A stretch of DNA of 58,913 nucleotides, filler included. It is 3 parts of 3 records of this genome, joined end to end, with 100 filler letters (N's around TTAATTAATTAA, not from the genome) between each part and the next. Parts side by side here need not be neighbours in the genome. Positions count along the whole stretch, not along the records: positions 9,106 to 34,294 come from SRR20825006_1901; 2 more parts are not named here. One strand, given 5' to 3'. The notes under the pieces were generated by a model. The model was not told where the DNA came from. It ran no database searches and saw only the letters and a list, made by a program, of their open reading frames with translations. Positions 9,006 through 34,394 of this stretch are shown here, piece by piece. A program made the position numbers and the translations under genes. How positions within the stretch are numbered: the stretch's first letter is position 1; the number at the start of each line of letters is the position of its first letter.

Positions 9006-9105
9006 NNNNNNNNNNNNNNNNNNNNNNNNNNNNNNNNNNNNNNNNNNNNTTAATTAATTAANNNNNNNNNNNNNNNNNNNNNNNNNNNNNNNNNNNNNNN
9101 NNNNN
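9006..9105. other. Artificial contig spacer (N44-TTAATTAATTAA-N44)
   Basis: N runs flank a linker with stops in all six frames; gene content and codon style change across it. Confidence 0.98.
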
Positions 9106-9740: not shown

Positions 9741-10682
9741 ATGCGGGCATTCATTTCTTATTCCCATAACGACAAGGCCGCGCTTGATCGGCTGCACGTC
9801 CACCTCAAGAACCTTACAAGGGAAGGGCGTATTGAGACCTGGTATGATCGCAACATCTTGGCTGGTGGCGAACTGGACGCTGAGATTGAACGGGAACTGG
9901 AGGCTTCCGACCTGTTCCTGCTCCTGGTGAGCCCCGACTTCATCGCATCCGACTACTGTGTCGAGCGCGAAATGAGACGCGCGCTTGAACGCCACGCCGC
10001 AGGGACCGCCCGTGTAGTGCCGATCATCGTGGAGGAATGCGATTGGAAAGCGATGAGGGAGTTGCGCCAACTGAAGGCCGCGCCGACTGACGGCAAGGCG
10101 ATCAGCGCATGGGCCAATCCAAACACCGCTTACCTAAATGTCGTGCAGGAGCTTCGACGCATCATCGAAGCTGAAGCTGTACCTGCAGCTGCGGCGGAGG
10201 TAGCCCATGAGCCGTCGGCCACACGCCCCTCGATGGCACGCTACCGAGCAAAGCGGCAGTTCGACCAAATCGACAAGGGTGATTTCCGCGATGCTGCCTT
10301 CGCCACCTTCAAGGATTACTTCCGACGAGCGATCATCGAAATGGACTCAATCGATGGATTGCGCGGACGTTTCGTTGACAGAAGTGCGACCTCTTTTGGG
10401 GCAACGGTTGTCAACAGCGGCCATCGAAATGGTACGGCCCACATCTCGGTGCACTGCCGTAGCTCGCAGGTCGCCCTGGGCGATATTTACTACTCGTTCA
10501 GCGAAAACGCCGGTGACAACACAGCAAACGGCGGTTTCAACATTTCGGCCGATGATTACGAGCAATTCCTGATTCAAACCATGAACGTCTTCGGTAGAAC
10601 TGATGAACGACTGACTCCAGAGCGAGCGGCTGAGGTGCTCTGGAATGAGTTCATTGGTAACGCAGGTATCAGCTATGACTGA
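9741..10682 (+). CDS. TIR domain protein (N-terminal TIR plus uncharacterised C-terminal domain)
   Basis: AFISYSHND, WYDRNILAG, LLVSPDFIASDYCVEREM (catalytic Glu region), VVPIIV. Confidence 0.92.
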   Translation: MRAFISYSHNDKAALDRLHVHLKNLTREGRIETWYDRNILAGGELDAEIERELEASDLFLLLVSPDFIASDYCVEREMRRALERHAAGTARVVPIIVEECDWKAMRELRQLKAAPTDGKAISAWANPNTAYLNVVQELRRIIEAEAVPAAAAEVAHEPSATRPSMARYRAKRQFDQIDKGDFRDAAFATFKDYFRRAIIEMDSIDGLRGRFVDRSATSFGATVVNSGHRNGTAHISVHCRSSQVALGDIYYSFSENAGDNTANGGFNISADDYEQFLIQTMNVFGRTDERLTPERAAEVLWNEFIGNAGISYD

Positions 10683-11522: not shown

Positions 11523-12515
11523 TCAATGGCTTCGTTCACCCGGCAGATAGAACTCCGTAATCCCGCGCTTCCCCTCAACCCGCCCGAGCTGGACGATCAC
11601 ATCGATGGACTTGCGGATATATTCCCGCACCTCGGCGAATGTTAGCGGCGTCCCTGCCTGCAGCACCATAATCGCCAGCCGGTCGATGGCGAGTTCCGCG
11701 GTTTCGGCGTGGATGGTGGAAACCGATCCACCATGACCGGTGTTGATGGCTTCGAGATAGGTCAGGGCCTCGGCCCCGCGCAGCTCGCCGACGATGATCC
11801 GATCGGGTCGCATACGGAGGGAGGCTTGAAGGAGAGCATTGGCGCTGCGTTGCGAACCGGCACCGCGGTCGGCCAGGAGGGCGACGGTGTTCGGCTGGCC
11901 GGGGAAGAGCTCGAAGGCGTCTTCGATGGTGATCAACCGCTCGTGCTCGCTCACATGGGTCAGGAGATGGCGGGCGAAGGTTGTTTTGCCGGTCGAGGTG
12001 CCGCCACTGATCAGGACGTTAAGCCGTGCCTCGACCAGGGTCTGTAGGGCAGCTTCGAGGTTCTCTTCGGCGAGACTGGAAATGTTCTTCATCTTCTCGG
12101 CTCGGAGCGCGTCGAGCGAGACGGCCTTGCCGAAGAGATAGGCAGGAGCGTAGTCCCGGACGCTGCCCGAGGCGAAGAGACGGATGGTGATCGAGGCCCC
12201 GCGGTCGATGGCGGGCGGCACGGCGACCTGGACCCGAAGCGGGCGGCCCGCGTATTCTACTTTGCCGGAGACGAGCGGGTTCTTTTCAGAGACGCGGGCC
12301 TTGGCGTCGCCGACGATGGTCTGGGCCATGTTGAGCGCAGTCGTTCGGTCCACGGTCTGGCCTTCGTGGCGCATGGTGGCGTCGCCCGCGGCCTCGAGCC
12401 AGACCTTGCCATCTGGATTGATCGCGATCTCGACCACGTCGTCACGCCTTAGAAGGTCACGGAACGGGTCGAGATAACGCTCGAGATAGGAGGTTGGGCT
12501 TTCTGAATGGCTCAA
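11523..12515 (-). CDS. virB11: T4SS ATPase VirB11
   Basis: ISGGTSTGKTT, TIEDAFEL, LRMRPDRIIVGELRG, NTGHGGSVSTIHA. Confidence 0.95.
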   Translation of the reverse strand: MSHSESPTSYLERYLDPFRDLLRRDDVVEIAINPDGKVWLEAAGDATMRHEGQTVDRTTALNMAQTIVGDAKARVSEKNPLVSGKVEYAGRPLRVQVAVPPAIDRGASITIRLFASGSVRDYAPAYLFGKAVSLDALRAEKMKNISSLAEENLEAALQTLVEARLNVLISGGTSTGKTTFARHLLTHVSEHERLITIEDAFELFPGQPNTVALLADRGAGSQRSANALLQASLRMRPDRIIVGELRGAEALTYLEAINTGHGGSVSTIHAETAELAIDRLAIMVLQAGTPLTFAEVREYIRKSIDVIVQLGRVEGKRGITEFYLPGERSH

Positions 12516-13936
12516 TAAATCACCACATCCCGGTCCACGAGCACGGTGACCGAGGCCCCTTGATCGACATAGATCGTCGGTGCGATCGAGACCTGGTCGG
12601 CGATGACTGAGCCGACGGCGTCCTGAAGGTCGCTGCCGACATCGCCCAGAACGATGCTGGTGGTTTCGTTGTTGGTACTCTCCGCCGCCACGGCCGGCGC
12701 CGCCCCGATCACGGAAATCAGTGCCGCTCCGCCGAAGCGCTCGGCGAACTTGGTGTCGACGAGACCGGTGAGGCCAGAGCGGCCGAGCTGATCCCCGCCC
12801 ACGGCGGCGATTTCCATCGAGGTGCCGTCCGGCGTCAGGACGCGGGTCCAGAGGATCAGGATACGCTTCTGATGCATCTCGATGCCCGAGCGGTATTGGC
12901 CAAAAAGGCGGGAACCCCGGGGGATCAGGATCCGGTCCCCGGAAAATGCCGGAACCGGTTCGGAGACCACCGCGACGACCGAGCCAGGCAGATCGCTGTT
13001 GATGGCGGTCTGGAGCGCGGCCTGAATGACCGAGCCTTGGGTCAGCGTGCGCTCGGGATGGGTGAGGCGGGCGGCCTCCTGCACCTCAAGTGGCCGCGCG
13101 CTCTGCAGAAACTGTTCATTGCCCGAGAGGACCGGCCCCCCGGTGCCAGCGGCCGCCGGATCGGCCACCGCCGCGCCACTTTGGCCACCACGCGGACCGT
13201 CGGCATAGACCACTGCGGGGGATTTGATCTGCGCGGTCAGAAGCTCCTCGGCGACCCGTTCGGCCTCGCGCTGGCGCTGTTCCTCTTCCTGCCGGCGGCG
13301 TTCTTCGAGAAGGCGCTGATCCGCAATCAGCCCCTCGCGGTCCAGCTCTGCCTCAAGACCCTCGCGCTGCGCCCGTTCGGCATCGAGCATGGCCTGCAGA
13401 CCTTCGATGCGGGTCTCGGTCTGGCGCTGCAGGTTGGCAAGCTCGGTTTCTTTTGCGGCCAGCGTCGCTTCAAGCGCCGCCTTCTGTTCGTCGAAGGCTT
13501 CGCGCAGGTCCGCGACGGCGGACTGGATTTCCGAGTTGCGGGCGGCCTGGCTGGCGGCGAGGGCCTCGCGGAGCTTGGCGATCTCGGCCAGCACTTCGGC
13601 GCTCGGTTCCGGGACAGGGGCTGCGGGCACATCGAGCGCTTCCTCGACAGCGATCAGCGCGTCATTGACCCGTTGCTCTGTTTCGTCGGGTGGAAACTCA
13701 AGCCGCCCGCCGGTGCCGGGGCGGCGGTCCTGGAAGGTCTCGACATCGGAGGTTCCCAGCGCGCTGTCGCCCTCCTGCAGGCCGTTGGCCAGGAAATACG
13801 CGACCCCGGCGGCGCCAAGGGCGAGGGCAGCGGCGATCGCGCCAACCCCGAGGCTGTTGCCGCGGCGTTTGGATTTGCCGCGCTGGCTGAACTGGTCGAG
13901 ACGGTCCTGAAGATCGGGAGGGGTTTGATCGGCCAT
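12512..13936 (-). CDS. virB10: T4SS core protein VirB10/TrbI
   Basis: N-terminal TM, coiled coil, QGSVIQAALQTAINSDLPG, GRSGLTG.VD.KFAERFG. Confidence 0.95.
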   Translation of the reverse strand: MADQTPPDLQDRLDQFSQRGKSKRRGNSLGVGAIAAALALGAAGVAYFLANGLQEGDSALGTSDVETFQDRRPGTGGRLEFPPDETEQRVNDALIAVEEALDVPAAPVPEPSAEVLAEIAKLREALAASQAARNSEIQSAVADLREAFDEQKAALEATLAAKETELANLQRQTETRIEGLQAMLDAERAQREGLEAELDREGLIADQRLLEERRRQEEEQRQREAERVAEELLTAQIKSPAVVYADGPRGGQSGAAVADPAAAGTGGPVLSGNEQFLQSARPLEVQEAARLTHPERTLTQGSVIQAALQTAINSDLPGSVVAVVSEPVPAFSGDRILIPRGSRLFGQYRSGIEMHQKRILILWTRVLTPDGTSMEIAAVGGDQLGRSGLTGLVDTKFAERFGGAALISVIGAAPAVAAESTNNETTSIVLGDVGSDLQDAVGSVIADQVSIAPTIYVDQGASVTVLVDRDVVIY

Positions 13937-13938
13937 GG

Positions 13939-14673
13939 TCAGTTGCTCACATAGATGGCGCTCTCGTCGCGCCAGGCGCAGATCGCCTCATCGCCGATGC
14001 GCAGCGTCCAGTAGGTGTTTACCCCGAGCACGCGAACGGTGTTGCCTTGCTGGGTCCAGTTGACCGTGCGCTCACGGCCCTGGTCATCGGCCTTGAAGAG
14101 GGCGGGCTGACGGGCGTTCTCCGGGAAGACGAAATACGTATAGCGCCCGTCGTCGTAGATATGGCTGGGGCGGAAATCCCCTTCGCCCGAGACGCGGTAA
14201 TTGTAGTTGCGCGGGGCCTCAACGCCCTTGGGCTGGGTTGCACTCGCCGCGCGGCGCTCCTCGTCGGGGTAACGGAAGCGGACCTCGAAGAACATGCCGG
14301 TGCGGTTCGGGATCGAGCCTTCGCGCAGATGGAAGGAATAGGTGCGGCGGTTGGTGATCACCGTCATGTTGGTCGAGGCATTGGCCACATGCGGCTTGAT
14401 CGTCAGCACATTGCCAAGCTCGGGGATCGGATCGACCTGGAAGCTTTCGGTGTCGCCGACGATCACTGCTTCAAACCGCTCCCCCGCCCCGAAATGGATC
14501 GTCGTCGAATGCCGAAGATCCGTTTCGATCCGGTAGACCTGGTTCTCGTTATAGACGGCGGTGCGGATGCGGATGTCGAGCGACCCGCCTTGCGGCGTGG
14601 CCTCGGCGAGGGCGGCAATAGGAATGGTAAGCGCTAGGAGAAACGTGGTGAGGAGCGCGGGCAGGGATTTCAT
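13939..14673 (-). CDS. virB9: T4SS core protein VirB9/TrbG
   Basis: Signal peptide, DIRIRTAVY, TNMTVITNRRTY, YDDGRYTYF. Confidence 0.95.
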   Translation of the reverse strand: MKSLPALLTTFLLALTIPIAALAEATPQGGSLDIRIRTAVYNENQVYRIETDLRHSTTIHFGAGERFEAVIVGDTESFQVDPIPELGNVLTIKPHVANASTNMTVITNRRTYSFHLREGSIPNRTGMFFEVRFRYPDEERRAASATQPKGVEAPRNYNYRVSGEGDFRPSHIYDDGRYTYFVFPENARQPALFKADDQGRERTVNWTQQGNTVRVLGVNTYWTLRIGDEAICAWRDESAIYVSN

Positions 14674-14678
14674 GGGGG

Positions 14679-15359
14679 TCAGTTCTCCAGGGTCTCGGCG
14701 TCGACGCGGTAGGAGGTCACCACGAAGCCCAAGGGGTTGGCCCAGACATCCTGAAGGCGCTGGCGGGTTTCGGGTTGGAAGTCGTAACTGAGCGTGGCGA
14801 CGTAAGACCGGGTCACGGTGCGGGTGTCGCGCGGCCGGCGCAGCGTGCGGGTGAAGCGGACCTGGGCCACGCCGCGCTCGATCTGGTTCACGGACTTGAT
14901 GACCACCTCGATCTTGGCGTCGCGCCCATAGACGGTGATCGGGTAGTCCTCATTGGTAGAGGACCAGAGATCGCGCAATGTGCGGGAAGCATCACCGTCG
15001 GAGCGGTCGAGGACCGAGTTGATGCGTTGCTCGCCATCGGTCAGGTCATAGGTTTCGCGGTCATCGACATAGGCCACCAGATTAGCCTGGATGATCGCAT
15101 CGCTTTCCGAGAGCGTCAGGGCCTGGACGGCGGCGACCCGGTCCATCTCGCCGGTCTCCTTGTCGACCACGACCACAAAAGTCTCGGTCGTCTTGAGCGG
15201 AAAGAGGCTCGCACCCGCGACCATTCCTGCCACGCCGACCAACACGCCCGCAGCCGCGACGAACCAAGCGAAACGCTCGCGCCGTCTTGGCCCGTAGATG
15301 AAATCCGCCTCGAAAGCGTCGCGGTCAGGCGCGGAGGAACTGGTCACAAGCTTCTTCAA
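14679..15359 (-). CDS. virB8: T4SS protein VirB8
   Basis: TM followed by LFPLK..VVVVDKETG, YVDDRETY, NPLGFVVTSYRVD. Confidence 0.95.
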   Translation of the reverse strand: MKKLVTSSSAPDRDAFEADFIYGPRRRERFAWFVAAAGVLVGVAGMVAGASLFPLKTTETFVVVVDKETGEMDRVAAVQALTLSESDAIIQANLVAYVDDRETYDLTDGEQRINSVLDRSDGDASRTLRDLWSSTNEDYPITVYGRDAKIEVVIKSVNQIERGVAQVRFTRTLRRPRDTRTVTRSYVATLSYDFQPETRQRLQDVWANPLGFVVTSYRVDAETLEN

Positions 15360-15376: not shown

Positions 15377-16390
15377 TCAGGGTTTGCGGAAGGCCTTGGC
15401 GGCGGAGAGAAGCGCGCCGGGGCTTTGCCGGATCAATTCGCCGGTCTTCACCACGCCCGCATTGGCCATCTGGTTCAGCTCATGCGGGGACTTGCCGGTG
15501 ACGAGGCGCGCGGTCGCGCCGGTGCCATACTGGCGCGTGTTCACGAAGCCCTGCCGCGCGAGCCCGGTCAGGCCCACGGCATTCGAGGCAATGCCGACAA
15601 CACCGGTGAGGTTGGAGGCGATGTAGGGGACTGAGGCCATGATCCCGGCGCTGAGGATCAGAATGACGAGGAAGGGCAGGATGAGGCTGACGGTCTCGAC
15701 ATCGCCCGGATCGGCCGAGGCGTCCCCGATCACTTCGGCGATCGCAACGATGATGCCCGCGGCCCCGGCGGCCGCGACCGGCATGAGCGCATAGCCGATG
15801 GTGGCGCGGGTCCAGGCCTCGAAGAGGGACTGGGTCGGCTTGAAGAGCGAGGTCACGATCATGAAGGGGGCGATGACGATCATCAGCGCGAAGACGATCC
15901 GGGCGAAGGCGATGATCCCGGCGGTGACGGCGGCGAAGACGGCGGAAAGGACGAAGAAGATGGCACCCAGGACCGCGCCGAAGACCCAGCCCGCGCGGTC
16001 GCCGATCGTGTCGCCATAGGCGGTGATGCGAGCGACCATGTTGTCGAGGCTCTCATAGACCCCGGCCTCGTCGCCCGACCCGGTGAGCGCCAGGATCGAG
16101 GCGCCGACGGAGTCAGGAACGCGCGTGACGATGTCATAGATGACGCTGAAATTGTCCCAGCTCTGCGCGAAGATCCCCACGAGCGCGATCTTCATGCCGA
16201 AGGCAAAGCCGGTGCCGAAGGACAGGGGGCGGAGTTGCATCACCGCGTTGATCCCGAGGAGCACGACAAGGAGCGCGGCCCCGGCGGAGATCACATCGCC
16301 GACAGCACCTGCCGAAGAGACAAACCCGTCCTGCGCCACGGTATCCACCGCGGCGTCGACCTGGCTCAGGATGTCGCGAATGACCCCCAT
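15377..16390 (-). CDS. virB6: T4SS inner membrane protein VirB6/TrbL
   Basis: Polytopic membrane protein, APFMI...LFKPTQSLFEAW, position before virB8. Confidence 0.92.
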   Translation of the reverse strand: MGVIRDILSQVDAAVDTVAQDGFVSSAGAVGDVISAGAALLVVLLGINAVMQLRPLSFGTGFAFGMKIALVGIFAQSWDNFSVIYDIVTRVPDSVGASILALTGSGDEAGVYESLDNMVARITAYGDTIGDRAGWVFGAVLGAIFFVLSAVFAAVTAGIIAFARIVFALMIVIAPFMIVTSLFKPTQSLFEAWTRATIGYALMPVAAAGAAGIIVAIAEVIGDASADPGDVETVSLILPFLVILILSAGIMASVPYIASNLTGVVGIASNAVGLTGLARQGFVNTRQYGTGATARLVTGKSPHELNQMANAGVVKTGELIRQSPGALLSAAKAFRKP

Positions 16391-16825
16391 CTACTCCGCA
16401 CAGGCCTCCACAACTTGCGCCTCGAGCGCGTCGGCCTGCGCGTAGAGATCGAGCACCTTGAATGGCAGGCGTGGGTTGTCCGAGGTCTGGAACCGGGGCA
16501 GGGCGGTGAGCGCCTGATCCCAGGTGAAGTCGCCCAGCAGGCAGGTGCAGGTTTCCGAGGCGAGGGCTTCTTCAGCAACAAGGATGCGCAGGATCGCGCG
16601 GTAGCCGTTCCGCAGGTAAGCGGTCTCGGCGAGATCCACCGGGGGTTTGGGGACGCGGCACGCATCCTCTTCATCCCGTGCGATCTCCATCGAGGTGAAG
16701 GGCCGATCCTGACCTGATGCCGCGTCAGGCAAGACAAGGAGGCCGAGCGGCAGGGCAAGCGAAAGGCTCAGAAGTCCGGCTTCCTTCAGGGTGAAGCGGC
16801 TCGGGGTAAGCTTGGAGGTCCTCAT
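16391..16825 (-). CDS. Exported Cys-containing hypothetical protein within the virB operon
   Basis: Signal-peptide-like N-terminus, 4 Cys, overlaps the virB5 stop and abuts virB6. Confidence 0.75.
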   Translation of the reverse strand: MRTSKLTPSRFTLKEAGLLSLSLALPLGLLVLPDAASGQDRPFTSMEIARDEEDACRVPKPPVDLAETAYLRNGYRAILRILVAEEALASETCTCLLGDFTWDQALTALPRFQTSDNPRLPFKVLDLYAQADALEAQVVEACAE

Positions 16826-17589
16826 GGATCCACCGCCATTGAGCGGAATTTGCGCTCGTCCGCGAGGGTCGCGGCATCGACGACGCCAAGCTGGCCGGCA
16901 CTGACGCCTTGGGCTGCTTCGAGGCGCCAGATCTGGGTTAGAATGATGCCGAGCTCGGCGGTGACGCGGGTGTTGAGATCGACGGCGGCCTTCAGCCCGT
17001 CCTGATCGTCGATGAGCCCGACCATGGTCTCGAGCCGTTCGAGGCTTTGCCCTGCCTCTTCGTGGCTCGCCTCGGCTGCGACGGAGAGCATGGCGCTTGC
17101 CCCGGCCGAGGTGGCGATGCGGTTGTCGGCAGGCTGATCGGAGCCCGAGAGCGTGCTCAGTCGTCCCGAGGTGAAGCCGCTGCCCGACAGAACCCGTTCG
17201 ACCGAGGCCGAGAGTTCTGCGCCTGGATTGAACCCGCTCAGGAAATCGCCGCTGGCCAGTGACTGCGCGGTATTGAGGGGGGCCACCAGCTTGCCACGCA
17301 GCGCGCGGAATTCTTCGACAGTGGCGAAGAGTTCTCCGAGCCCGCTGCCCTCAATCAGTGAAGTCAATTGCGCCTCGAGGTTCGTCAGTTGCGACAACTG
17401 GGTTTCTAGTTCCAGCCGCATGGTGGCGAGCTGCTGCATCTGGACGTTCAGGTCCTCGGCCATGTGCTCGAGCTGTGCCACGAGCTGACCAAGCTGTGAT
17501 CCATCAAAGGTCGGCACGCCCTGCGCCGCTGCGGGCGAGGCAAACCCGAGTGTGGTGACTGCGGCCACGGTCAGGAGAAAATGTCTCAT
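16822..17589 (-). CDS. virB5: T4SS minor pilin VirB5
   Basis: Signal peptide then QGVPTFD; helical; LKAAVDLNTRVTAE. Confidence 0.9.
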   Translation of the reverse strand: MRHFLLTVAAVTTLGFASPAAAQGVPTFDGSQLGQLVAQLEHMAEDLNVQMQQLATMRLELETQLSQLTNLEAQLTSLIEGSGLGELFATVEEFRALRGKLVAPLNTAQSLASGDFLSGFNPGAELSASVERVLSGSGFTSGRLSTLSGSDQPADNRIATSAGASAMLSVAAEASHEEAGQSLERLETMVGLIDDQDGLKAAVDLNTRVTAELGIILTQIWRLEAAQGVSAGQLGVVDAATLADERKFRSMAVDP

Positions 17590-18698
17590 TCGGGAACTCC
17601 CATCTGCATGAAGTCGCGCTCGGCCAGCCGGTCGGCGACGAGGTGCTGCGCGTAAGCCGCCTCGCGCTGCTGGTTTGCCGCCATCAGCCGGACGCGAAGG
17701 TTGAGGATGCGACCGATCTCGGCTTTGGCATAGGTGTTGAGCTCCCAGGCCGCTTTGGCATTGGGTTGCGCGTCGATCTGCAGGATGATGGCACGCAAGC
17801 GGTTGATCACCTGTTCGGTGGTGGCCGAGCTGTCGGCGGCGTAATAGACGCCCGCCTCGGAGATGCTGGCATATTCGGCGAGCGCAAAGTCCGAGGGCGA
17901 GAGCGTGCCGAGCGCGTCGGCACCACCAACCACGGCGAGGTATTCGTTGTAGAATTTCGAGATGTTGCGCACGTAGCCTTGGGTCTCGGCAAAGGGTGGC
18001 ACCCCGCCGTATTCGATGACCCGGCCCGGCCCCGCGTTATAGGCCGCGAGCGCATGGGGGATGTTGCCGAAGCGATTGAGTTGGGTCGTGATATAGCGCG
18101 CGCCGCCGCGGAGGTTGTCTTTTACGTCATAGCGGTCGACTCCAAGATCGGAGGCGGTGCCGGGCATGAGCTGGGTCAAGCCATAGGCGCCGACCGGGCT
18201 TTCGGCAGAGACGTTGAAGCGGCTCTCCTGCTTGATCAGGGCCTGGAAGAGGCAGCGCCACTGGGTGGCAGAAAGACCCGCGCGGGCCACACCGGGTGTG
18301 CCAGCGAACTCACCCGCGACCTCGACGATCATCATCTCGACCGTCTCGCGGCCTTCGCCGAAAAAGCGGCTGTTCATCGGGCTGGGATCGGTATTGGGAT
18401 AGACCGCTGCCACTCCGAAATCCGCGTTGCCATCGAGCGCGCGGATATCGAAGCCGGGCCCGGTGATGGCTGCGGTCATCTTCTCGAGGACGCGCAGCTG
18501 GTCGGCCTGCACATCGGCCAGCGTGGACTCGGTGTGGTCCTTGTCCTGCTGGACGCCCAGATCTTCGGCGAGAGCTGTCACCCGTGCAATGGCGCGCCCG
18601 ATCGCGGAATTATCCTGCGTCGGTACGCTCTGGGCATGCGCGGGCAGGGCGCTGAGGCCAAGGCTGAGCCCGGCGGATATGATCGCGACGCGGCTCAT
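17586..18698 (-). CDS. Lytic transglycosylase (SLT) domain inserted in a VirB5-like protein
   Basis: SLT motifs QESRFN, GAYGLTQLMPGTA, ALAAYNAGPG, PPFAETQGYV. The flanks align by eye with the adjacent VirB5. Confidence 0.88.
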   Translation of the reverse strand: MSRVAIISAGLSLGLSALPAHAQSVPTQDNSAIGRAIARVTALAEDLGVQQDKDHTESTLADVQADQLRVLEKMTAAITGPGFDIRALDGNADFGVAAVYPNTDPSPMNSRFFGEGRETVEMMIVEVAGEFAGTPGVARAGLSATQWRCLFQALIKQESRFNVSAESPVGAYGLTQLMPGTASDLGVDRYDVKDNLRGGARYITTQLNRFGNIPHALAAYNAGPGRVIEYGGVPPFAETQGYVRNISKFYNEYLAVVGGADALGTLSPSDFALAEYASISEAGVYYAADSSATTEQVINRLRAIILQIDAQPNAKAAWELNTYAKAEIGRILNLRVRLMAANQQREAAYAQHLVADRLAERDFMQMGVPE

Positions 18699-18904
18699 TC
18701 CGGACGGGGCAGGGACTCGAAGGTGCAGTCCGGCTTGGCCGTTGCGTGAGCCGGTGCGCCCATGGTCGAGACCGAAAACGCGGATCGCGTTACTTGCGGC
18801 TCACCATTGCGTCCGAAGCAGGGCGAGGTTTTCTCGGTGTATGTCTCGCAAGCCGACAGCAGGCTCGCGGCGGCGCAAAGCGCGAGGAGAGGTTTCGAAC
18901 TCAT
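18695..18904 (-). CDS. Small lipoprotein (VirB7-like or accessory)
   Basis: MSSKPLLALCAAASLLSAC lipobox; ATGA overlaps with both neighbours. Confidence 0.75.
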   Translation of the reverse strand: MSSKPLLALCAAASLLSACETYTEKTSPCFGRNGEPQVTRSAFSVSTMGAPAHATAKPDCTFESLPRPE

Positions 18905-21294
18905 ATCACATGTCTCCAAAAATCGGGATTGGCGCGCCAATCGGCGGGCACGCGGGCTTCGCCGGTGGCACCGCCGCCAAGGATGGGAAGGAGGTCGCCA
19001 AGTGCAGAGAGGTCGGCATCGACGAAGACACTGTCGCCCGCCGAGCGGATAAGCGCGATGCGCTGGCCGATGGTCGGCTGCACGAGAAGGGCAGCCTCCT
19101 TGGCGTTCACGCGGAGAAAATCGTAATCGGAGACGGTGGCGCGATCGTTCGGGAAGAGGATCTGGGTCGGGACTGTTTCGACGATGGTCTTGCCGACGCG
19201 GCTGTTCCGCAGCTGGCTCGGATATTGCGTCATCATGATCACGACGCAGTTCATCTTGCGCAGCGTCACCAGCCAGTTTTCCAGCCGCGCCCCGAAGTAG
19301 GGATCGTCCAAGAGCTTCCAGGCCTCGTCGAGCACGATGATGGTGGGGCGGCGGTCTTCGACCACGCGTTCGATCTGGCGGAAAATGTAGGAGAGCACCG
19401 CCATCCGCTCGGTGGTCATGTCGAGGATCTCGGTCATGTCAAACCCGACGATGTCGCCTGTGAGCTTGAGGCCCGCGCCGCGCTCGGACTCGTCGAAAAC
19501 CCATCCGTAACGTCCACCCGGCGCCCATTCGGCGACGCGGGACTGCAGCTCGCCATCATCATCGAGCGACTGAAACAGCGTCTCGAAACTGACAAAGCGC
19601 TGCAGCGCCGCGCCCGCATCGGCGTTCTGGCCGACCGCACTCTGGATATGGCGGGATTGCTCGCCGGTGAGTGTGCCATTGCGCGTGAGGAGTGTCGCCA
19701 GCCAGTCCGAAAGCCAGGCACGGCCGCGCTCGTCTGTCTCGGTGGCGAGCGGATTCAGCCCTGTCGGTACGCCCGCGCGGATCTCGTTGTAGCGCCCGCC
19801 CAAGGCGCGAACCGCCATTTCGAGGCCGCGATCCTTGTCGAAGAAAAAGAGCCGCGCGCCGACCCGCTGCGCTTGGGCTGCGAGGAAAGCGGTGGTCAGC
19901 GTCTTGCCCGTGCCGGTGCGACCGAGCACAAGCGTATGGCCGACCGTTGGTTCCTTGCCGGGGCCGCCCGCCTCGTGGAAATTGAACCGATAGCCCGAGG
20001 TGCCGACCGTGGGCAGGGCCGAAATGGTCTGACCCCAAGGCGACTGATCCGGCCCGCGCCCTTCGACGCTGCCGTGAAGTGCCGCGAAATCCGCGAAGTT
20101 GATCGAGGAAATCGGCGTCTTGCGGGCGCGGTAGCCGAAGTTGCCGGGAGATTGTGCGAAGTAGGTGGCTTTAAGCGCCATGTTCTCGCGCACGATCACC
20201 GACATGATCTCTTGGCCAACGCGTTTGATCTGGGCGGCGGCGCGTTCGAGCGTGTCGCGGTCCGGGGCGTAGACGGCGATGGAGAGGTGATGATCGCCAA
20301 AGGCGATGCGGCCCGCTTCCTGGTCATCGGCGGCCTGGCCCAGTTGTTCGCGCAGAGAGACGGCGGCATCGTCGGAGGCATGCATCTGACGGATGATGCG
20401 CTGGATGCGTTCGGCCATGATGTTGTTCGGGATCGGACTGAAGGAGTTCGTCAGCACGATATCCAGCGGCAGGTCGAGCGCGTCGAGGAGTGTGACGTCG
20501 GTGAGTGCGGGGTAGGACTTCATCGAAAAGAGAGCGCCGTATTTGACCCGACCGGTCACGGCATCGGTCAGGGTGACAACTTCGCCATCAAAGGTCGCGC
20601 GGCAATTGCTCAAGGTATGCGAGAGGGGCAGGGCGCTATGCCCGAAGGCGATGGGGGAGAAGCTGCCCGCGTTCAGGGTATTGAGATAGCCCAGCCATTC
20701 ACCACCGGACTTCGTGAGTCTGACTGGGTTGGCCGACGCAAGCGCCACCTCGAAAAAGCCCATGACCTCGTTCAGCTCCTGCAGGCGTGTCGCGCGGTCC
20801 TTGACCCAGGCCCTGCGGGCCAGCGCGCGCAGGAGCGGAATACGGGCCGAGATGTCAGGCCGCCGAATCACGCTGAGATAAAGTTGGCGTTTGGCGGGGC
20901 GCAGGTCTTTGACATGGGCCTGCCAGCGCGTGTCGATCGCGGCGGCGAAGCTGTCTCCCTCGATAGGGCGCATCCCGAGATCCTGCGGGACTGAGATCCG
21001 GTGGATGTAGAAACCAAAGGCATTACCGGTCTGGGCGACGATGGCTGCGACCGCGCGTTTGAGCGCATCGAGCCGGGCGTCCTCAGTGGTCATCGGGTTA
21101 AGCCCGTCGAGGCGCAGGGTCGCCATCAGATCGCCCTCGCGCAGGACCATGACATCGTCATCGGCGAGAGCAAAATACGGCAGGTGTTCGGCGAGATAGC
21201 TCTCCCGCGCGAACTCCCCGCCGCCAGCCTGAAGGAGTGCCGTTCCGTGAGTGGAAAGTGTGCCTGCATCAAGCGCCAAAGCTGTCGCCTCCAT
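18901..21294 (-). CDS. virB4: T4SS ATPase VirB4
   Basis: GHTLVLGRTGTGKT, FFDKDRG, IVLDEAWKLL, TLRKMN. Start uncertain (21294 or 21279). Confidence 0.96.
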   Translation of the reverse strand: MEATALALDAGTLSTHGTALLQAGGGEFARESYLAEHLPYFALADDDVMVLREGDLMATLRLDGLNPMTTEDARLDALKRAVAAIVAQTGNAFGFYIHRISVPQDLGMRPIEGDSFAAAIDTRWQAHVKDLRPAKRQLYLSVIRRPDISARIPLLRALARRAWVKDRATRLQELNEVMGFFEVALASANPVRLTKSGGEWLGYLNTLNAGSFSPIAFGHSALPLSHTLSNCRATFDGEVVTLTDAVTGRVKYGALFSMKSYPALTDVTLLDALDLPLDIVLTNSFSPIPNNIMAERIQRIIRQMHASDDAAVSLREQLGQAADDQEAGRIAFGDHHLSIAVYAPDRDTLERAAAQIKRVGQEIMSVIVRENMALKATYFAQSPGNFGYRARKTPISSINFADFAALHGSVEGRGPDQSPWGQTISALPTVGTSGYRFNFHEAGGPGKEPTVGHTLVLGRTGTGKTLTTAFLAAQAQRVGARLFFFDKDRGLEMAVRALGGRYNEIRAGVPTGLNPLATETDERGRAWLSDWLATLLTRNGTLTGEQSRHIQSAVGQNADAGAALQRFVSFETLFQSLDDDGELQSRVAEWAPGGRYGWVFDESERGAGLKLTGDIVGFDMTEILDMTTERMAVLSYIFRQIERVVEDRRPTIIVLDEAWKLLDDPYFGARLENWLVTLRKMNCVVIMMTQYPSQLRNSRVGKTIVETVPTQILFPNDRATVSDYDFLRVNAKEAALLVQPTIGQRIALIRSAGDSVFVDADLSALGDLLPILGGGATGEARVPADWRANPDFWRHVI

Positions 21295-21547
21295 GCAGGG
21301 CCCGGTTCTTCGTCGGGCGCACCGATCCATAGGAGACGCGCAGCACCTCGAAGAAATGCGGCTCGCGGTCGGCGACGAACCAGAGGATCGGATAGGCGAC
21401 GAGGCCGATCAGGAAGAAGGCCATGGACTTGGTCCAGATGAACGGCAGAACGACCCCGGTCGCCAGCACCACGAGGTATCCGACAGGGAGGCCCAGATAC
21501 TTGGGCGGTCGGGCGAGGCCCAGAAATAGGGGGGATCGTTCTGCCAA
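21269..21547 (-). CDS. virB3: T4SS protein VirB3
   Basis: PLFLGLARPPKYLGLP, two TM segments, REPHFF. Confidence 0.92.
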   Translation of the reverse strand: MAERSPLFLGLARPPKYLGLPVGYLVVLATGVVLPFIWTKSMAFFLIGLVAYPILWFVADREPHFFEVLRVSYGSVRPTKNRALHGGDSFGA

Positions 21548-21562
21548 CTCTATTCTCCAACC

Positions 21563-21844
21563 TCAGGAGAAGCCGTCGACAATGGTGCCGGCCGAGAAGA
21601 TCAGCACGATCCCGATGATGACCGAGGCGAACCAGCCCCAGTTGAGCCTTCCCATCATACACATGAAGCCGGTGCCAATGACCGCGAGCGTCGCGACCGC
21701 GATCCCGATCGGACCGGTGAGAGCGGCCTCGACGGTTTCCAGCATGGTCTGGATCGGCGACAAGTCTTGCGCGAAAGCGGGTGCCGAGAGAATCGTCAAG
21801 GTTGTAGCGGTGGGCAAAAGGCGGCTGAGGCGATGTCGAAGCAT
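21563..21844 (-). CDS. virB2: T4SS major pilin VirB2/TrbC
   Basis: PAFAQ cleavage site, two hydrophobic helices, GRLNW. Confidence 0.92.
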   Translation of the reverse strand: MLRHRLSRLLPTATTLTILSAPAFAQDLSPIQTMLETVEAALTGPIGIAVATLAVIGTGFMCMMGRLNWGWFASVIIGIVLIFSAGTIVDGFS

Positions 21845-21859: not shown

Positions 21860-22558
21860 TTACTGAAAATCAATGAGGACCGGTGCGCGCTCTGGCAGGC
21901 TGGTCGCGAGGCGGAAGCTTGGCTTGTTCGTAGGCGTCCCCGCCAGCCGAGACTGTATCCGGTGAATGCGCGCAATGTAGGCACGCGTCTCGGAGAAGGG
22001 TGGGACGCCCGCGTATTGGATCACGCGGTGAGGACCGGCATTGTAGGCCGCGAGCGCAAGGTCGATGTCCTTGAACGTGGCGAGTTGAGCGAGGAGATAG
22101 CGCGCCGCGCCGTCGAGGTTCTGGGAGGGATCGCGCGGATCGACGCTGAGAGCACGGGCGGTATCCGGCATCAGTTGGCCGAGACCATAGGCGCCCTTGG
22201 GGCTTACGGCGGTCGGGTTGTAGCTGCTTTCAGCTTCGACCAGTGCGCGGAACAGGACCTGCCAATCATCCGGGCCCAGACCAACCTGCCGCAGGGCGCG
22301 ATTGCCCTCGTGGCGATCTGCGGTGGCCAGGATCAAATTGAGGATCTCTGTGCGCCCCGAAGTCGGTGTAGCCTCCTGAGGTGGAAATGAAACCACGGGT
22401 TCAGCGCCGTCGTTCAGCCCTGCCCAGGCGGGTTTTTCGCCGTGGAAGGTCCAACCTGACGTCCGAACAGTGCCATCGCGCGCAAAAGCGATGACGTCAG
22501 CCGCACTCCTCGAGGGTGATGCTGTAGTCAGGGCCAAAGCACAGATTGCGCCCGTCAC
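21860..22558 (-). CDS. virB1: Lytic transglycosylase VirB1
   Basis: AESSYNP, GAYGLGQLMP, ALAAYNAGP, PPFSETRAY. GTG 22558 gives a signal-like N-terminus; start uncertain. Confidence 0.85.
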   Translation of the reverse strand: MTGAICALALTTASPSRSAADVIAFARDGTVRTSGWTFHGEKPAWAGLNDGAEPVVSFPPQEATPTSGRTEILNLILATADRHEGNRALRQVGLGPDDWQVLFRALVEAESSYNPTAVSPKGAYGLGQLMPDTARALSVDPRDPSQNLDGAARYLLAQLATFKDIDLALAAYNAGPHRVIQYAGVPPFSETRAYIARIHRIQSRLAGTPTNKPSFRLATSLPERAPVLIDFQ

Positions 22559-22811
22559 CGAACTCGAGATGATGTTTAAAGAGCCCCGGCCAGATGTTGA
22601 AATACCGCGGCTCGGGCCCGTGCGGGGTAATTCTCGTGGAGACGAGAATGGCTTCCGGCTCGCCGATCCGCAGGTAGATGCACTGGTAGCGCGGCTTGCC
22701 ATCGTCCGTGAACCCCACGAGTTCATACCGGCAGCGGAATGCAACGCCCTTCTCAAAAAGGTCTTTTACACCATCGATGGTGATCAAAATTTGGTTGCGC
22801 GCTATCGGCAT
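22497..22811 (-). CDS. Hypothetical protein heading the virB operon
   Basis: GGGGAGAG RBS, protein-like composition, overlaps the virB1 start region. Confidence 0.65.
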   Translation of the reverse strand: MPIARNQILITIDGVKDLFEKGVAFRCRYELVGFTDDGKPRYQCIYLRIGEPEAILVSTRITPHGPEPRYFNIWPGLFKHHLEFGDGRNLCFGPDYSITLEECG

Positions 22812-33551: not shown

Positions 33552-34294
33552 TGGCGTTCGGGTTCGGGACACATCCCCCCGCAGGCGGGCGCATCTGTGT
33601 TGTCGGGGCCGGGTTCATGGGCTGCGTGATCGCGACGCTTTATGCGCGACACGGCTATGAGGTCGTGCTCTGCGACAGCCAAACCGCCATGCTCGACAGC
33701 TATGCCGAGCGCGCGCGGCCCATTGCCGCGACACTGGCCGACGACACTTTGACGGTCGAGGCCATTCTGGGCCGTGTGAGCACCGAGGCGTCTCTCAAGA
33801 CGGCGGTGGCCGGTGTCTTCATGGTGCATGAGGTCGTTCAGGAGGTGTTGGAGACCAAGCAGGCGGTGTTCGAAGAGCTGGATCGCCTGTGTCCGCCGGA
33901 TGTGGTTTTGGCGACAAACACCTCGTCGTTCCTGATCTCGGATATCGCGGCTGGGATGTCGCGGCGGGAGCGGATGGTGGGAATTCATTACATCACGCCA
34001 GCGCATATCATTCCGGTGATCGAGATCATCCACAGCGCGTTCACGCCGCCGGAACTGGTCGCATGGGGCCGTGCTTTCGTCCAGAGCATCGACCATGTCG
34101 GCGTGGCCTGCCCGGAGCGGCCCGGTTTTCTCATCAACAAGATCCAGTTTGCCATGCTGACGGAAATTTACCGCCTGATGGACGAAGGCCTGGCCAGCCG
34201 AGACGATATCGACGCGGCGGTGCGCTTGAGCCTGGGGCCGCGCCTCGCCCTTTGGGGGCCGCTTCTGACCGAGGATCTGATCGTCTCGAAAAAG
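33551..34294 (+). CDS. 3-hydroxyacyl-CoA dehydrogenase family protein (3'-truncated by contig end)
   Basis: VVGAGFMG, EVVQEVLETKQ, LATNTSS, PGFLINKIQ, DIDAAV. Confidence 0.88.
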
Positions 34295-34394
34295 NNNNNN
34301 NNNNNNNNNNNNNNNNNNNNNNNNNNNNNNNNNNNNNNTTAATTAATTAANNNNNNNNNNNNNNNNNNNNNNNNNNNNNNNNNNNNNNNNNNNN
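34295..34394. other. Artificial contig spacer (N44-TTAATTAATTAA-N44)
   Basis: Same linker as 9006-9105; genes are truncated on both sides. Confidence 0.98.

What the first reader, a model, noticed from the sequence alone, without database searches (positions are those of the whole stretch)
17586..18698. VirB5 paralog carrying an inserted lytic transglycosylase: a possible enzyme-armed pilus tip
Seen: the operon already has a stand-alone VirB1 (21860-22558), yet this second SLT gene sits directly before virB5 and its non-SLT parts match VirB5. Mature N-termini are QSVPTQD and QGVPTFD. The C-terminus QVINRLRAIILQIDAQPNAKAAWELNTYAKAEIGRILNLRVRLMAA...LAERDFMQMGV aligns without gaps to VirB5 QSLERLETMVGLIDDQDGLKAAVDLNTRVTAELGIILTQIWRLEAA...ADERKFRSMAV. 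The SLT catalytic ES motif (QESRFN) is intact. Known: VirB5 is the pilus-tip minor pilin. Inference: a muramidase displayed on the tip could open recipient peptidoglycan or act as a contact-dependent weapon, a role hidden by a generic 'lytic transglycosylase' annotation.
Basis: partly seen in the sequence, partly recalled or inferred. Interest (0 to 1): 0.78.

Follow-up and report, generated by a model that had tools for sequence, protein, structure and literature searches.

The report
VirB5 paralog carrying a lytic transglycosylase
A conjugation-machine operon of marine Rhodobacterales encodes a second copy of the pilus-cap protein VirB5 whose middle part has been replaced by a cell-wall-cutting enzyme, a conserved design that papers have listed only as a second VirB1-type enzyme and that could help show how these machines get through peptidoglycan.

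Summary
The ORF at 17586-18698 (minus strand, 370 aa) has a Sec signal peptide, a VirB5-like N-terminal helix, an intact SLT lytic-transglycosylase domain, and two VirB5-like C-terminal helices. Profile comparison with the neighbouring VirB5 family gives 99.3% probability, E 3.6e-20.

The SLT domain is the sister clade of the operon's own VirB1, which points to a single origin. The gene lay between virB4 and virB5 in 22 of 22 genome loci that carry it, all Rhodobacterales. It is also on a Dinoroseobacter shibae plasmid typed as conjugative.

All parts are under purifying selection (dN/dS 0.03-0.08). All 11 residues conserved in its N-flank are the same residues that VirB5 conserves. One paper lists such a gene as a second VirB1-like enzyme. 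I found no paper that notes the VirB5 flanks.

Best reading: an active enzyme held on a VirB5 scaffold, so that it sits with VirB5 on the T4SS stalk or pilus cap. Where it acts is not shown. It could be the donor wall, the recipient wall or both.

Verdict: a new variant of a known kind, of moderately high interest.

The parts
17586..18698 (-). whole gene of the VirB5-SLT chimera (370 aa plus stop codon)
18633..18698 (-). Sec signal peptide, residues 1-22, ending AHA before Q23
   Evidence: read; the same layout is seen in VirB5 and in TrwJ
18426..18632 (-). VirB5-like N-flank, residues 23-91: mature N-terminus QSVPTQD and long helix 30-78
   Evidence: BLASTP E 4e-10; AF2 helix; 11 of 11 conserved positions shared with VirB5
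18357..18425 (-). linker, residues 92-114, low model confidence but with conserved Y100, P107, F113, G114
17931..18356 (-). VirB1-derived SLT lytic-transglycosylase domain, residues 115-256
   Evidence: 48% identity to the operon's VirB1 over 135 aa, E 1e-38; Pfam SLT E 5.9e-20; pLDDT above 90; Foldseek matches to Slt/LtgA
18225..18227 (-). codon of the catalytic Glu158, in the QES motif
   Evidence: invariant in 49 of 49 sequences
17589..17930 (-). VirB5-like C-flank, residues 257-370: two long helices 268-310 and 314-365 with the KAAxxLNT...E...RL.AA motif
   Evidence: BLASTP E 7e-9; hhalign; 10 of 18 conserved positions shared with VirB5
17586..17589 (-). ATGA overlap of the chimera stop codon and the virB5 start codon
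18695..18698 (-). ATGA overlap of the lipoprotein-gene stop codon and the chimera start codon
16822..17589 (-). canonical virB5 (255 aa)
   Evidence: Pfam PF07996 E 8.6e-16, above the cut-off; profile hit to TrwJ 7o3v E 2.1e-6
21860..22558 (-). stand-alone virB1 (SLT); the ORF is open up to 22756
18695..18904 (-). small lipoprotein gene (lipobox LLSAC), a VirB7 candidate
18901..21330 (-). virB4
15377..16390 (-). virB6 (TrbL/VirB6 family), the expected docking base of VirB5-type proteins
   Evidence: Mace 2022 passages
11523..15359 (-). virB8, virB9, virB10 and virB11

Best explanation
The gene encodes a periplasm-exported hybrid built from two parts of the same T4SS operon.

The scaffold is a duplicated VirB5. 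It keeps the signal peptide, the mature N-terminus, the long helix 1 and the two long C-terminal helices. The region that lies between helix 1 and the last two helices in VirB5 has been replaced by a copy of the SLT domain of VirB1.

Shown here: the homology of each part, an intact active-site motif, purifying selection on every part, fixed placement and overlapping stop/start codons with virB5, and a single origin of the SLT domain.

Inferred: because it keeps exactly the residues that VirB5 keeps, it joins or substitutes for VirB5 subunits in the cap that sits on the VirB6 platform. Pilus growth pushes that cap outward. The cap therefore carries an active lytic transglycosylase that cleaves whatever glycan strands it meets.

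I take the anchoring of the enzyme on the stalk or pilus cap as the core mechanism. Conditional on that, my odds are about 60:40 that the main substrate is the donor's own sacculus during stalk or pilus outgrowth rather than the recipient's wall after contact. This would be a division of labour with VirB1, which serves assembly of the outer-membrane core.
For: Homology of the flanks to VirB5:
- BLASTP E 4e-10 and 7e-9.
- hhalign probability 99.3%, E 3.6e-20, over the whole VirB5 profile.
- Flank-only HMMs found only chimeras and VirB5s, 51 of 7849 ORFs.
- The family profile touches TrwJ (7o3v) at its N-terminus, E 0.055. The neighbouring VirB5 profile hits TrwJ at E 2.1e-6 with the same AQG(V/I)P.FDG start.
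- PF07996 is above its cut-off in 3 of 11 full-length cluster representatives. It is precomputed together with SLT in 11 of the 120 listed homologs.

Structure: the AF2 model has mean pLDDT 79. It shows helix 30-78, SLT 120-256 (pLDDT above 90), and helices 268-310 and 314-365. TraC is described as three bundled helices plus a globular appendage (passage, PMC2653234).

Retention of VirB5-specific residues:
- N-flank: 11 of 11 positions conserved at 90% or more are the same conserved residue in VirB5. Slid-register controls give 0-3.
- C-flank: 10 of 18. Controls give 0-2.

Selection, from 22 unsaturated pairs: dN/dS is 0.067 (N-flank), 0.083 (linker), 0.029 (SLT) and 0.066 (C-flank). VirB5 gives 0.019-0.028. 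The VirB1 SLT domain gives 0.09.

Enzyme:
- E158-S159 and the AAYNAGPG motif are invariant.
- Foldseek probability is 1.00 to Slt/LtgA structures.

Origin: the 26 chimera SLT domains form one clade (100/94). It is sister to the VirB1 clade of the same operons (27 rows, 97/80). The joint clade has support 99/88.

Synteny:
- 22 of 73 genome loci carry it.
- 22 of 22 have virB4 upstream and virB5 directly downstream.
- 20 of 22 also have virB1. The other two are cut at a contig end.
- ATGA overlaps lie on both sides of the gene.

Context from papers:
- The VirB5 pentamer sits on VirB6, its N-terminal part projects out, and pilus growth pushes it out (passages of PMC9259494).
- VirB5 interacts with VirB1* in Agrobacterium (passage, PMC2653234).
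Against: - No result here shows co-assembly with VirB5 or VirB6, or any localisation.
- In this protein the Pfam VirB5 match is below the cut-off (15.2 vs 24.7 bits).
- The flanks of the AF2 model are only moderately confident (block means 62-84; N-terminus and linker 44-54).
- The VirB5 model was poor (pLDDT 54). The mapping of the insertion onto the appendage therefore rests on sequence alignment, predicted secondary structure and a description of TraC in a paper.
- Foldseek of the whole model returned SLT folds and no VirB5 structure among the listed matches.
- An SLT domain of about 140 aa on each of five subunits may not fit the cap or pass the outer-membrane channel. This is my inference, and no geometry was computed.
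- If VirB1 already clears the wall for the core complex, a stalk-mounted enzyme may find no donor peptidoglycan to cut.
- Two related operons (L032, L033) go straight from virB4 to virB5 without it, so the machine can exist without it.
Confidence: 0.55

Rival explanations
1. The chimera is displayed on the extracellular pilus tip, and its enzyme opens the recipient's peptidoglycan after the tip has crossed the recipient outer membrane. This helps to build the mating channel.
For: - It keeps the VirB5 N-terminal part, which projects from the pentamer like a pore-former (passages of PMC9259494).
- VirB5 is placed at the pilus tip, and a 2025 review lists 'cell wall-piercing device' as an open hypothesis for it (PMC12624023, section 10 read in full).
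- Both VirB1 and the chimera are kept active and under purifying selection, which argues for non-redundant jobs.
- Donor wall inside the core complex may already have been cleared by VirB1.
Against: - There are no localisation data.
- Nothing shows that a T4SS tip reaches the recipient periplasm.
- The bulk of the SLT domain may hinder export through the outer-membrane complex (inference).
- Chimera-less relatives exist.
Confidence: 0.22
2. It is a VirB1-type assembly enzyme that uses VirB5-derived helices only as an address tag. It docks transiently on VirB6 or VirB5 in the donor periplasm, cuts the donor wall, and is not built into the stalk or pilus.
For: - The SLT domain is sister to VirB1.
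- Lasek et al. 2018 read the homolog on Paracoccus yeei pYEE5 as fulfilling the VirB1 role (table and passage, PMC6209633).
- VirB1-type enzymes are known to bind machine parts (passages of PMC12624023).
Against: - An address tag would not need the complete VirB5 layout.
- All 11 conserved N-flank positions, including the mature N-terminus, match VirB5.
- The flanks are nearly as constrained as the enzyme.
Confidence: 0.18
3. It is a contact-dependent antibacterial weapon: a muramidase effector carried on the tip to kill neighbouring cells.
For: A review does liken the VirB5 tip to the PAAR/VgrG spike.
Against: - No immunity-gene candidate was found. The upstream lipoprotein gene is present in 23 of 23 chimera loci and also in the chimera-less L032. 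The downstream gene is virB5.
- The closest relative of the enzyme is the housekeeping VirB1 of the same operon.
- It sits in operons of plasmids typed as conjugative or mobilizable.
Confidence: 0.03

Closest known systems
VirB5 / TraC / TrwJ (Pfam PF07996, minor pilin and stalk cap of P-type T4SS)
   Same: - Sec signal peptide.
- Mature N-terminus Q-x-V-P-x-x-D.
- Long helix 1 and two long C-terminal helices.
- The C-terminal KAAxxLNT...E...RL.AA motif.
- Gene position between virB4 and virB6.
   Different: - The region between helix 1 and the last two helices is replaced by a linker plus a 140-aa SLT enzyme domain. In VirB5 this region is about residues 84-148, three short predicted helices (low confidence).
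- The Pfam score is below the cut-off in this member.
- It always co-exists with a normal VirB5.
VirB1 (T4SS-associated family-1 lytic transglycosylase, Pfam PF01464)
   Same: - SLT fold with the catalytic Glu-Ser and AYNAG motifs.
- 48% identical to the operon's own VirB1.
- The two SLT domains form sister clades.
   Different: - The domain is embedded inside a VirB5 scaffold rather than free-standing.
- It is a second copy that does not sit at the head of the operon.
- Its SLT domain is under tighter constraint than that of VirB1 (dN/dS 0.03 vs 0.09).
The 'two lytic murein transglycosylases' of the Paracoccus yeei pYEE5 T4SS (Lasek et al. 2018, PMC6209633)
   Same: By gene order and size it appears to be the same kind of gene: 377 aa, between VirB4 and VirB5-like (table seen). 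I did not align that protein.
   Different: In the passages I saw, the paper treats it as a VirB1 substitute and does not mention VirB5-like flanks.
FlgJ of the flagellar rod (recalled, not tested here)
   Same: It works in a similar way. A cap or scaffold protein of an outward-growing axial structure is fused to a peptidoglycan hydrolase, so the enzyme acts exactly where the structure must cross the wall.
   Different: - The folds are unrelated.
- The hydrolase is a terminal fusion, not an insertion.
- The hydrolase class is different.
- No sequence comparison was made.
T6SS spike proteins with peptidoglycan-degrading extensions, such as the 'evolved' VgrG-3 of Vibrio cholerae (recalled). A review likens the VirB5 tip to PAAR/VgrG (PMC12624023).
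   Same: If the tip-display reading is right, both are enzyme domains carried on the piercing tip of a secretion machine.
   Different: - Those systems have a cognate immunity gene and act as toxins.
- Here no immunity candidate was found, and the enzyme derives from an assembly factor.
Second SLT gene between virB4 and virB5 in Rhizobiaceae plasmids (Agrobacterium pAtK224b, Sinorhizobium, Rhizobium; family A3)
   Same: - Same operon slot.
- Signal peptide followed by A-x-VPV-x-D.
- SLT domain.
- hhalign to the chimera family covers 1-291 vs 1-339, E 5.7e-58.
- Its SLT domain is placed next to the chimera clade.
   Different: - The VirB5 signal is weak: only the N-terminal motif matches (E 2.7e-4, probability 41%).
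- PF07996 is found in 0 of 35 members.
- The flank HMMs do not hit it.
- The tree placement has SH-aLRT support of only 43.
- It has four conserved cysteines and a different C-terminus.

Membership tests
VirB5 / TraC / TrwJ (PF07996) | Pfam PF07996 match above the gathering score | tested here: not met
   P0001 scores 15.2 bits against a 24.7 cut-off, E 0.029, residues 287-348. The match is above the cut-off in 3 of 11 full-length representatives of the family.
VirB5 / TraC / TrwJ (PF07996) | Homology to bona fide VirB5 over both ends of the protein | tested here: met
   hhalign probability 99.3%, E 3.6e-20, template columns 7-261 of 261. Flank-only HMMs hit VirB5 in every locus that has one.
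VirB5 / TraC / TrwJ (PF07996) | Sec signal peptide and the conserved mature N-terminus | tested here: met
   AHA|QSVPTQD. A22, Q23, G24, V25, P26 and D29 are conserved at 90% or more and are identical to VirB5 conservation. TrwJ has AQGIPVFDG.
VirB5 / TraC / TrwJ (PF07996) | Three-helix bundle | tested here: inconclusive
   AF2 gives three long helices (30-78, 268-310, 314-365) at pLDDT of about 62-84. Foldseek returned SLT folds and no VirB5 structure among the listed matches. The VirB5 control model was too poor to compare.
VirB5 / TraC / TrwJ (PF07996) | Globular helical appendage between helix 1 and the last helices | tested here: not met
   That region is occupied by a linker plus the SLT domain, residues 92-256.
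VirB5 / TraC / TrwJ (PF07996) | Pentamer on VirB6 and location at the pilus tip | not testable with these tools
   This needs a structure or a localisation experiment.
Family-1 lytic transglycosylase (SLT, PF01464) | Pfam SLT match above the cut-off, and the SLT fold | tested here: met
   71.4 bits against a 21.3 cut-off. PDB profile hits to Slt, Slt70 and LtgA reach E 1e-19. Foldseek probability is 1.00. pLDDT is above 90.
Family-1 lytic transglycosylase (SLT, PF01464) | Catalytic Glu-Ser and the downstream GLxQ and AYNAG motifs | tested here: met
   E158, S159, G173, Q176 and A218-P224 are invariant in 49 of 49 sequences. That these are the defining motifs is recalled knowledge.
Family-1 lytic transglycosylase (SLT, PF01464) | Enzymatic release of 1,6-anhydro-muropeptides | not testable with these tools
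   This needs a biochemical assay.
VirB1 (T4SS assembly transglycosylase) | Free-standing SLT protein encoded at the head of the virB operon | tested here: not met
   That role is filled by the separate gene at 21860-22558. The chimera lies between virB4 and virB5 in 22 of 22 loci.
T4SS-delivered antibacterial effector | Adjacent cognate immunity gene | tested here: not met
   The neighbours are a lipoprotein gene, which is also present in the chimera-less L032, and virB5. A secretion-signal domain was not searched for specifically. Pfam showed only SLT and a weak VirB5 match.

The most novel reading that the evidence does not exclude
The chimera is a genuine subunit of the pilus-tip pentamer. 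Some T4SS pili would then carry a peptidoglycan-cutting enzyme at their tip. After the VirB5 N-terminal parts breach the recipient outer membrane, the enzyme would cut the recipient's wall to open the path for DNA. This would be the first direct molecular support for the idea that VirB5 is a cell-wall-piercing device.
Probability: 0.2. Interest if true: 0.85.

Novelty: new variant of a known kind. Interest (0 to 1): 0.64.

Why it matters
What VirB5 does at the far end of a conjugative pilus is an open question. So is how a T4SS gets through peptidoglycan beyond the hole made by VirB1. A 2025 review lists 'pore' against 'cell wall-piercing device' for VirB5 as unresolved (PMC12624023).

Here nature has fused the two parts. 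A natural VirB5-VirB1 hybrid argues that a wall-cutting activity is useful exactly where VirB5 sits. It also fits the reported VirB1*-VirB5 contact in Agrobacterium (passage).

The gene is common:
- 271 of 72,556 plasmid records match at least 80% of the protein.
- 22 of the 73 genome loci examined carry it.
- It is present on a Dinoroseobacter shibae 126-kb plasmid. Transfer of the 191-kb and 126-kb sister plasmids of another D. shibae strain has been shown experimentally (PMC4886583, title and passages).

Deletion, catalytic-mutant and localisation tests are therefore feasible in a harmless marine system.

It also corrects annotation. Databases and one paper treat the gene as a plain second VirB1.

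Tried and rejected
1. Immunity or inhibitor role for the upstream lipoprotein. Rejected. A lipobox ORF lies between virB4 and the chimera in 23 of 23 chimera loci, but also between virB4 and virB5 in the chimera-less L032. L033 could not be judged because my interval there was void. It is more likely the VirB7 equivalent.

2. Chromosomal island. I first read the housekeeping genes in the window as chromosomal context. This is rejected. The window is a concatenation of contigs, with N44-linker-N44 spacers at 9006-9105 and 34295-34394. The T4SS piece is 9106-34294.

3. Foldseek of the whole chimera model against the PDB. All listed matches were SLT-type folds and none was a VirB5 structure. The helical flanks are not visible this way.

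4. AF2 model of the neighbouring VirB5, meant to map the insertion site. Mean pLDDT was 54, too poor for a fold search. I used only its secondary structure, with caution.

5. Complex prediction of the chimera with two VirB5 copies.

6. dN/dS over all 103 pairs gave 0.26-0.61 with dS of about 1.1. I discarded this as saturated and repeated it on 22 pairs with dS of 0.03-0.7.

7. Whether the Rhizobiaceae second SLT belongs to the family. Inconclusive.

8. Literature. Nine full-text searches found no paper describing a VirB5-SLT fusion.
- Two T4SS reviews do not mention one in the passages found (PMC12857230; PMC12624023).
- Two roseobacter conjugation papers contain 'transglycosylase' zero times.
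- Subscription journals are not covered by the library.

9. Not checked:
- The metagenome and viral contig collections, which were closed.
- The supplements of PMC11481893 (Table S7, a survey of Roseobacteraceae T4SSs).
- Longer or shorter forms of the protein.
Full report
**What is at the coordinates**

The minus-strand ORF 17586-18698 encodes 370 aa. It lies inside a complete P-type T4SS operon, all on the minus strand:
- virB1 (SLT) at 21860-22558/22756
- virB2 at 21563-21844
- virB3 at 21269-21547
- virB4 at 18901-21330
- a 69-aa lipoprotein gene at 18695-18904
- the gene in question
- virB5 at 16822-17589
- a 144-aa ORF at 16391-16825
- virB6, virB8, virB9, virB10 and virB11 down to 11523

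The stop codon of the lipoprotein gene overlaps the start of the chimera in ATGA. The stop of the chimera overlaps the start of virB5 in the same way.

**Check of the observation**

- Pfam finds SLT at residues 147-231 (E 5.9e-20). It finds a sub-threshold VirB5-family match at 287-348 (PF07996, 15.2 bits against a 24.7 cut-off).
- BLASTP against the neighbouring VirB5 gives two separate alignments. The N-part (7-91) has 36% identity and E 4e-10. The C-part (232-368) has 34% identity and E 7e-9.
- The SLT part is 48% identical to the operon's own VirB1 over 135 residues, E 1e-38.

I tested in three ways whether the flank similarity exceeds chance.
- A profile of 49 family members (A1) against a profile of 30 neighbouring VirB5 proteins (A2) gives hhalign probability 99.3% and E 3.6e-20. 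It covers the whole VirB5 profile, and the SLT domain is looped out.
- I built HMMs from the N-flank (residues 22-85) and the C-flank (262-368) alone and searched all 7849 ORFs of the 75 loci then held. The union of hits was 51 ORFs: 25 SLT-bearing chimeras and 26 VirB5 genes, and nothing else. The hits include the VirB5 of two operons that lack a chimera.
- All 11 chimera N-flank positions conserved at 90% or more carry the same residue that is conserved at 90% or more at the aligned VirB5 position (A22, Q23, G24, V25, P26, D29, D46, Q50, Q67, L68, L71). Sliding the register by 1-8 positions gives 0-3 matches. In the C-flank the count is 10 of 18, against 0-2 in slid controls.

The neighbour is a real VirB5. 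It scores PF07996 E 8.6e-16, above the cut-off. Its profile hits the solved R388 VirB5, TrwJ, at E 2.1e-6 with the same AQG(V/I)P.FDG start.

**Anatomy**

An AlphaFold2 model built on the 49-sequence alignment has mean pLDDT 79. It shows:
- a signal peptide
- a long helix at 30-78
- a poorly defined linker
- a very confident SLT domain at 120-256 (pLDDT above 90)
- two long helices at 268-310 and 314-365 (pLDDT about 75-84)

A Foldseek search of the whole model listed only lytic-transglycosylase-type folds (Slt, LtgA, Slt70, MltF; probability 1.00). It does not see the helical part.

The model of the neighbouring VirB5 was poor (pLDDT 54). Its predicted secondary structure has the same outer elements (helix 30-81, then helices 153-194 and 200-250) with three short helices in between.

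A paper passage describes TraC as three bundled helices with a globular appendage (PMC2653234).

On sequence alignment and secondary structure, the chimera therefore keeps the bundle and has an enzyme where VirB5 has its middle region. That this region is the crystallographic appendage is my inference.

**The enzyme looks active**

Q157-E158-S159, G173, Q176 and A218-P224 are invariant in 49 of 49 sequences. That these are the catalytic and substrate-binding motifs of family-1 enzymes is recalled knowledge.

**Distribution and synteny**

- tblastn against 72,556 plasmid records found 1294 records with some match, mostly to SLT alone. In 271 records at least 80% of the protein is covered. The best is Paracoccus albus p3 at 96.8%.
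- The operon region itself matches 49 plasmids at DNA level: Sulfitobacter, Phaeobacter, Ruegeria, Dinoroseobacter and others.
- A scan of one genome per species returned 73 distinct loci.
- 22 of the 73 carry a full-length chimera, all in Rhodobacterales.
- 22 of those 22 have virB4 upstream and virB5 immediately downstream.
- 20 of the 22 also have a separate virB1. The other two contigs end at virB4.
- This holds across two different downstream gene orders, with virB6 either before virB8 or after virB11.
- Two related operons, L032 and L033, go from virB4 straight to virB5.
- At 50% identity clustering, about 13 full-length representatives exist among 1.84 billion proteins.
- A D. shibae 126-kb plasmid typed as conjugative has the ortholog: 44% identity, E 1e-93.

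**Origin**

I built a maximum-likelihood tree of 87 SLT domains. The six Rhizobiaceae rows had been dropped by a coverage filter.
- The 26 chimera domains form one clade (support 100/94).
- That clade is sister to the clade of VirB1 domains from the same operon family (27 rows, 97/80).
- The two together are set apart from sphingomonad and erythrobacter VirB1s and from other SLTs (99/88).

The simplest history is one duplication of the operon's virB1 SLT domain into a duplicated virB5, followed by co-divergence with the operon. A 92-nt direct repeat, 75% identical, between the two SLT regions is still visible in the DNA (D1).

**Selection**

On 22 unsaturated pairs (dS 0.03-0.7), dN/dS is 0.067 for the N-flank, 0.083 for the linker, 0.029 for SLT and 0.066 for the C-flank. 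VirB5 itself gives 0.019-0.028.

The VirB1 SLT domain in the same operons gives 0.09, with Glu-Ser kept in 22 of 22.

An earlier run on 103 mostly saturated pairs gave higher, unreliable values. The pairs are not independent.

The flanks are functional parts and not decaying remnants, and both enzymes are maintained.

**How it most likely works**

Passages of Mace et al. 2022 (PMC9259494) report the following.
- A VirB5 pentamer is mounted on a VirB6 pentamer to form the periplasmic stalk.
- The N-terminal part of VirB5 projects out like that of pore-forming proteins.

The chimera keeps precisely the VirB5-conserved residues, most completely in the N-terminal part. It is also co-transcribed with VirB5 and probably translationally coupled to it.

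I therefore infer that it occupies VirB5-type positions in that cap, alone or mixed with VirB5. This would place an active lytic transglycosylase on the leading end of the stalk or pilus.

This resembles the flagellar FlgJ principle, in which a rod cap is fused to a muramidase (recalled). It also fits the reported VirB1*-VirB5 contact (passage).

Which wall it cuts is open. The donor sacculus is the one it is certain to meet. If VirB1 has already cleared the space for the core complex, however, the recipient wall becomes the more interesting target. [quoted passage not shown]

No tool result bears on localisation.

A weapon role is unlikely. No immunity candidate was found, and the upstream lipoprotein gene also occurs in a chimera-less operon.

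**Comparison with what is known**

- The protein is homologous to VirB5, but this member fails the Pfam threshold and lacks VirB5's own middle region.
- It is a bona fide SLT-family enzyme.
- It is not VirB1 in the operon sense.
- Nine full-text searches and the passages found in two recent T4SS reviews gave no description of a VirB5-SLT fusion.
- Pfam's precomputed labels already show both domains on 11 of the 120 listed homologs. The architecture is therefore latent in databases but uninterpreted.

**A possibly related family in Rhizobiaceae plasmids**

This family occupies the same slot in Agrobacterium, Sinorhizobium and Rhizobium plasmids. It has the A-x-VPV-x-D start, and its SLT domain groups next to the chimera clade.

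The VirB5 signal is weak:
- probability 41% and E 2.7e-4, for the N-terminal motif only
- PF07996 in 0 of 35 members
- no flank-HMM hit
- branch support of 43

I leave its membership open.

**Caveat on context**

The window is a concatenation of contigs, with spacers at 9006-9105 and 34295-34394. The T4SS piece is 9106-34294. The housekeeping genes elsewhere in the window say nothing about its replicon. No relaxase or coupling protein lies on that piece among ORFs of 150 aa or more.

**Verdict**

The functional half (tip display, action on recipients, weapon) is untested.
- This is a new variant of a known kind. It is common, conserved and experimentally tractable, and it bears on an open question about T4SS tips.

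Noticed in passing
window 9006-9105 and 34295-34394: Two artificial spacers (44 N, TTAATTAATTAA, 44 N) show that the window is a concatenation of three contigs. The T4SS contig is 9106-34294. ORFs that touch the spacers, such as 33551-34342, are partly artificial.
   Followed up: yes
window 18695-18904 (-): A 69-aa lipoprotein gene (lipobox LLSAC, with a second Cys about 10 residues later) lies between virB4 and the chimera. An equivalent ORF is present in 23 of 23 chimera loci and in the chimera-less L032. No gene lies between virB6 and virB8, so this is the likely VirB7 equivalent, in an unusual position.
   Followed up: partly
window 16391-16825 (-): A 144-aa ORF with a signal-peptide-like start and several cysteines lies between virB5 and virB6. 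This is the slot where IncN and IncW plasmids carry the entry-exclusion gene (recalled). It has no Pfam or NCBIfam match.
   Followed up: no
window 9741-10682 (+): A TIR-domain protein is encoded next to virB11. The same neighbour (a TIR protein, then an SMC-family ATPase) flanks the operon on Paracoccus albus plasmid p3 (L001). This may be a defence cargo.
   Followed up: no
L018 4065-5729: A single 554-aa ORF joins the chimera's N-flank and SLT domain (up to about residue 272) in frame to a whole VirB5. It lies in an operon that lacks virB4 and has a truncated virB8. It looks like a deletion product in a decaying locus.
   Followed up: partly
L007-L012, L016, L017, L019, L024-L026, L029: In one lineage of these operons virB6 has moved to the end, after virB11, while the virB4-chimera-virB5 block is unchanged.
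   Followed up: no
L076 4138-5226 (D. shibae pDFL36-03): The annotated start of the ortholog falls at the conserved VPTxD motif, so the signal peptide appears to be missing from the annotated protein. This is probably a start-codon miscall.
   Followed up: no
L002 6701-7792, L020, L022; alignment A3: The Rhizobiaceae second SLT protein (about 362 aa) has four invariant cysteines (C62, C114, C330, C345) and an acidic, Cys-containing C-terminus unlike VirB5. Its own operon's VirB1 is only distantly related to it.
   Followed up: partly
window 17973-18064 and 21977-22068: A 92-nt direct repeat, 75% identical, links the SLT region of the chimera and that of virB1. It is a DNA-level trace of the domain duplication.
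   Followed up: partly
window 21860-22756 (-): The virB1 reading frame is open for 66 codons upstream of the likely start at 22558. Relatives are annotated even shorter (558 nt in L001), so the true start is uncertain.
   Followed up: no
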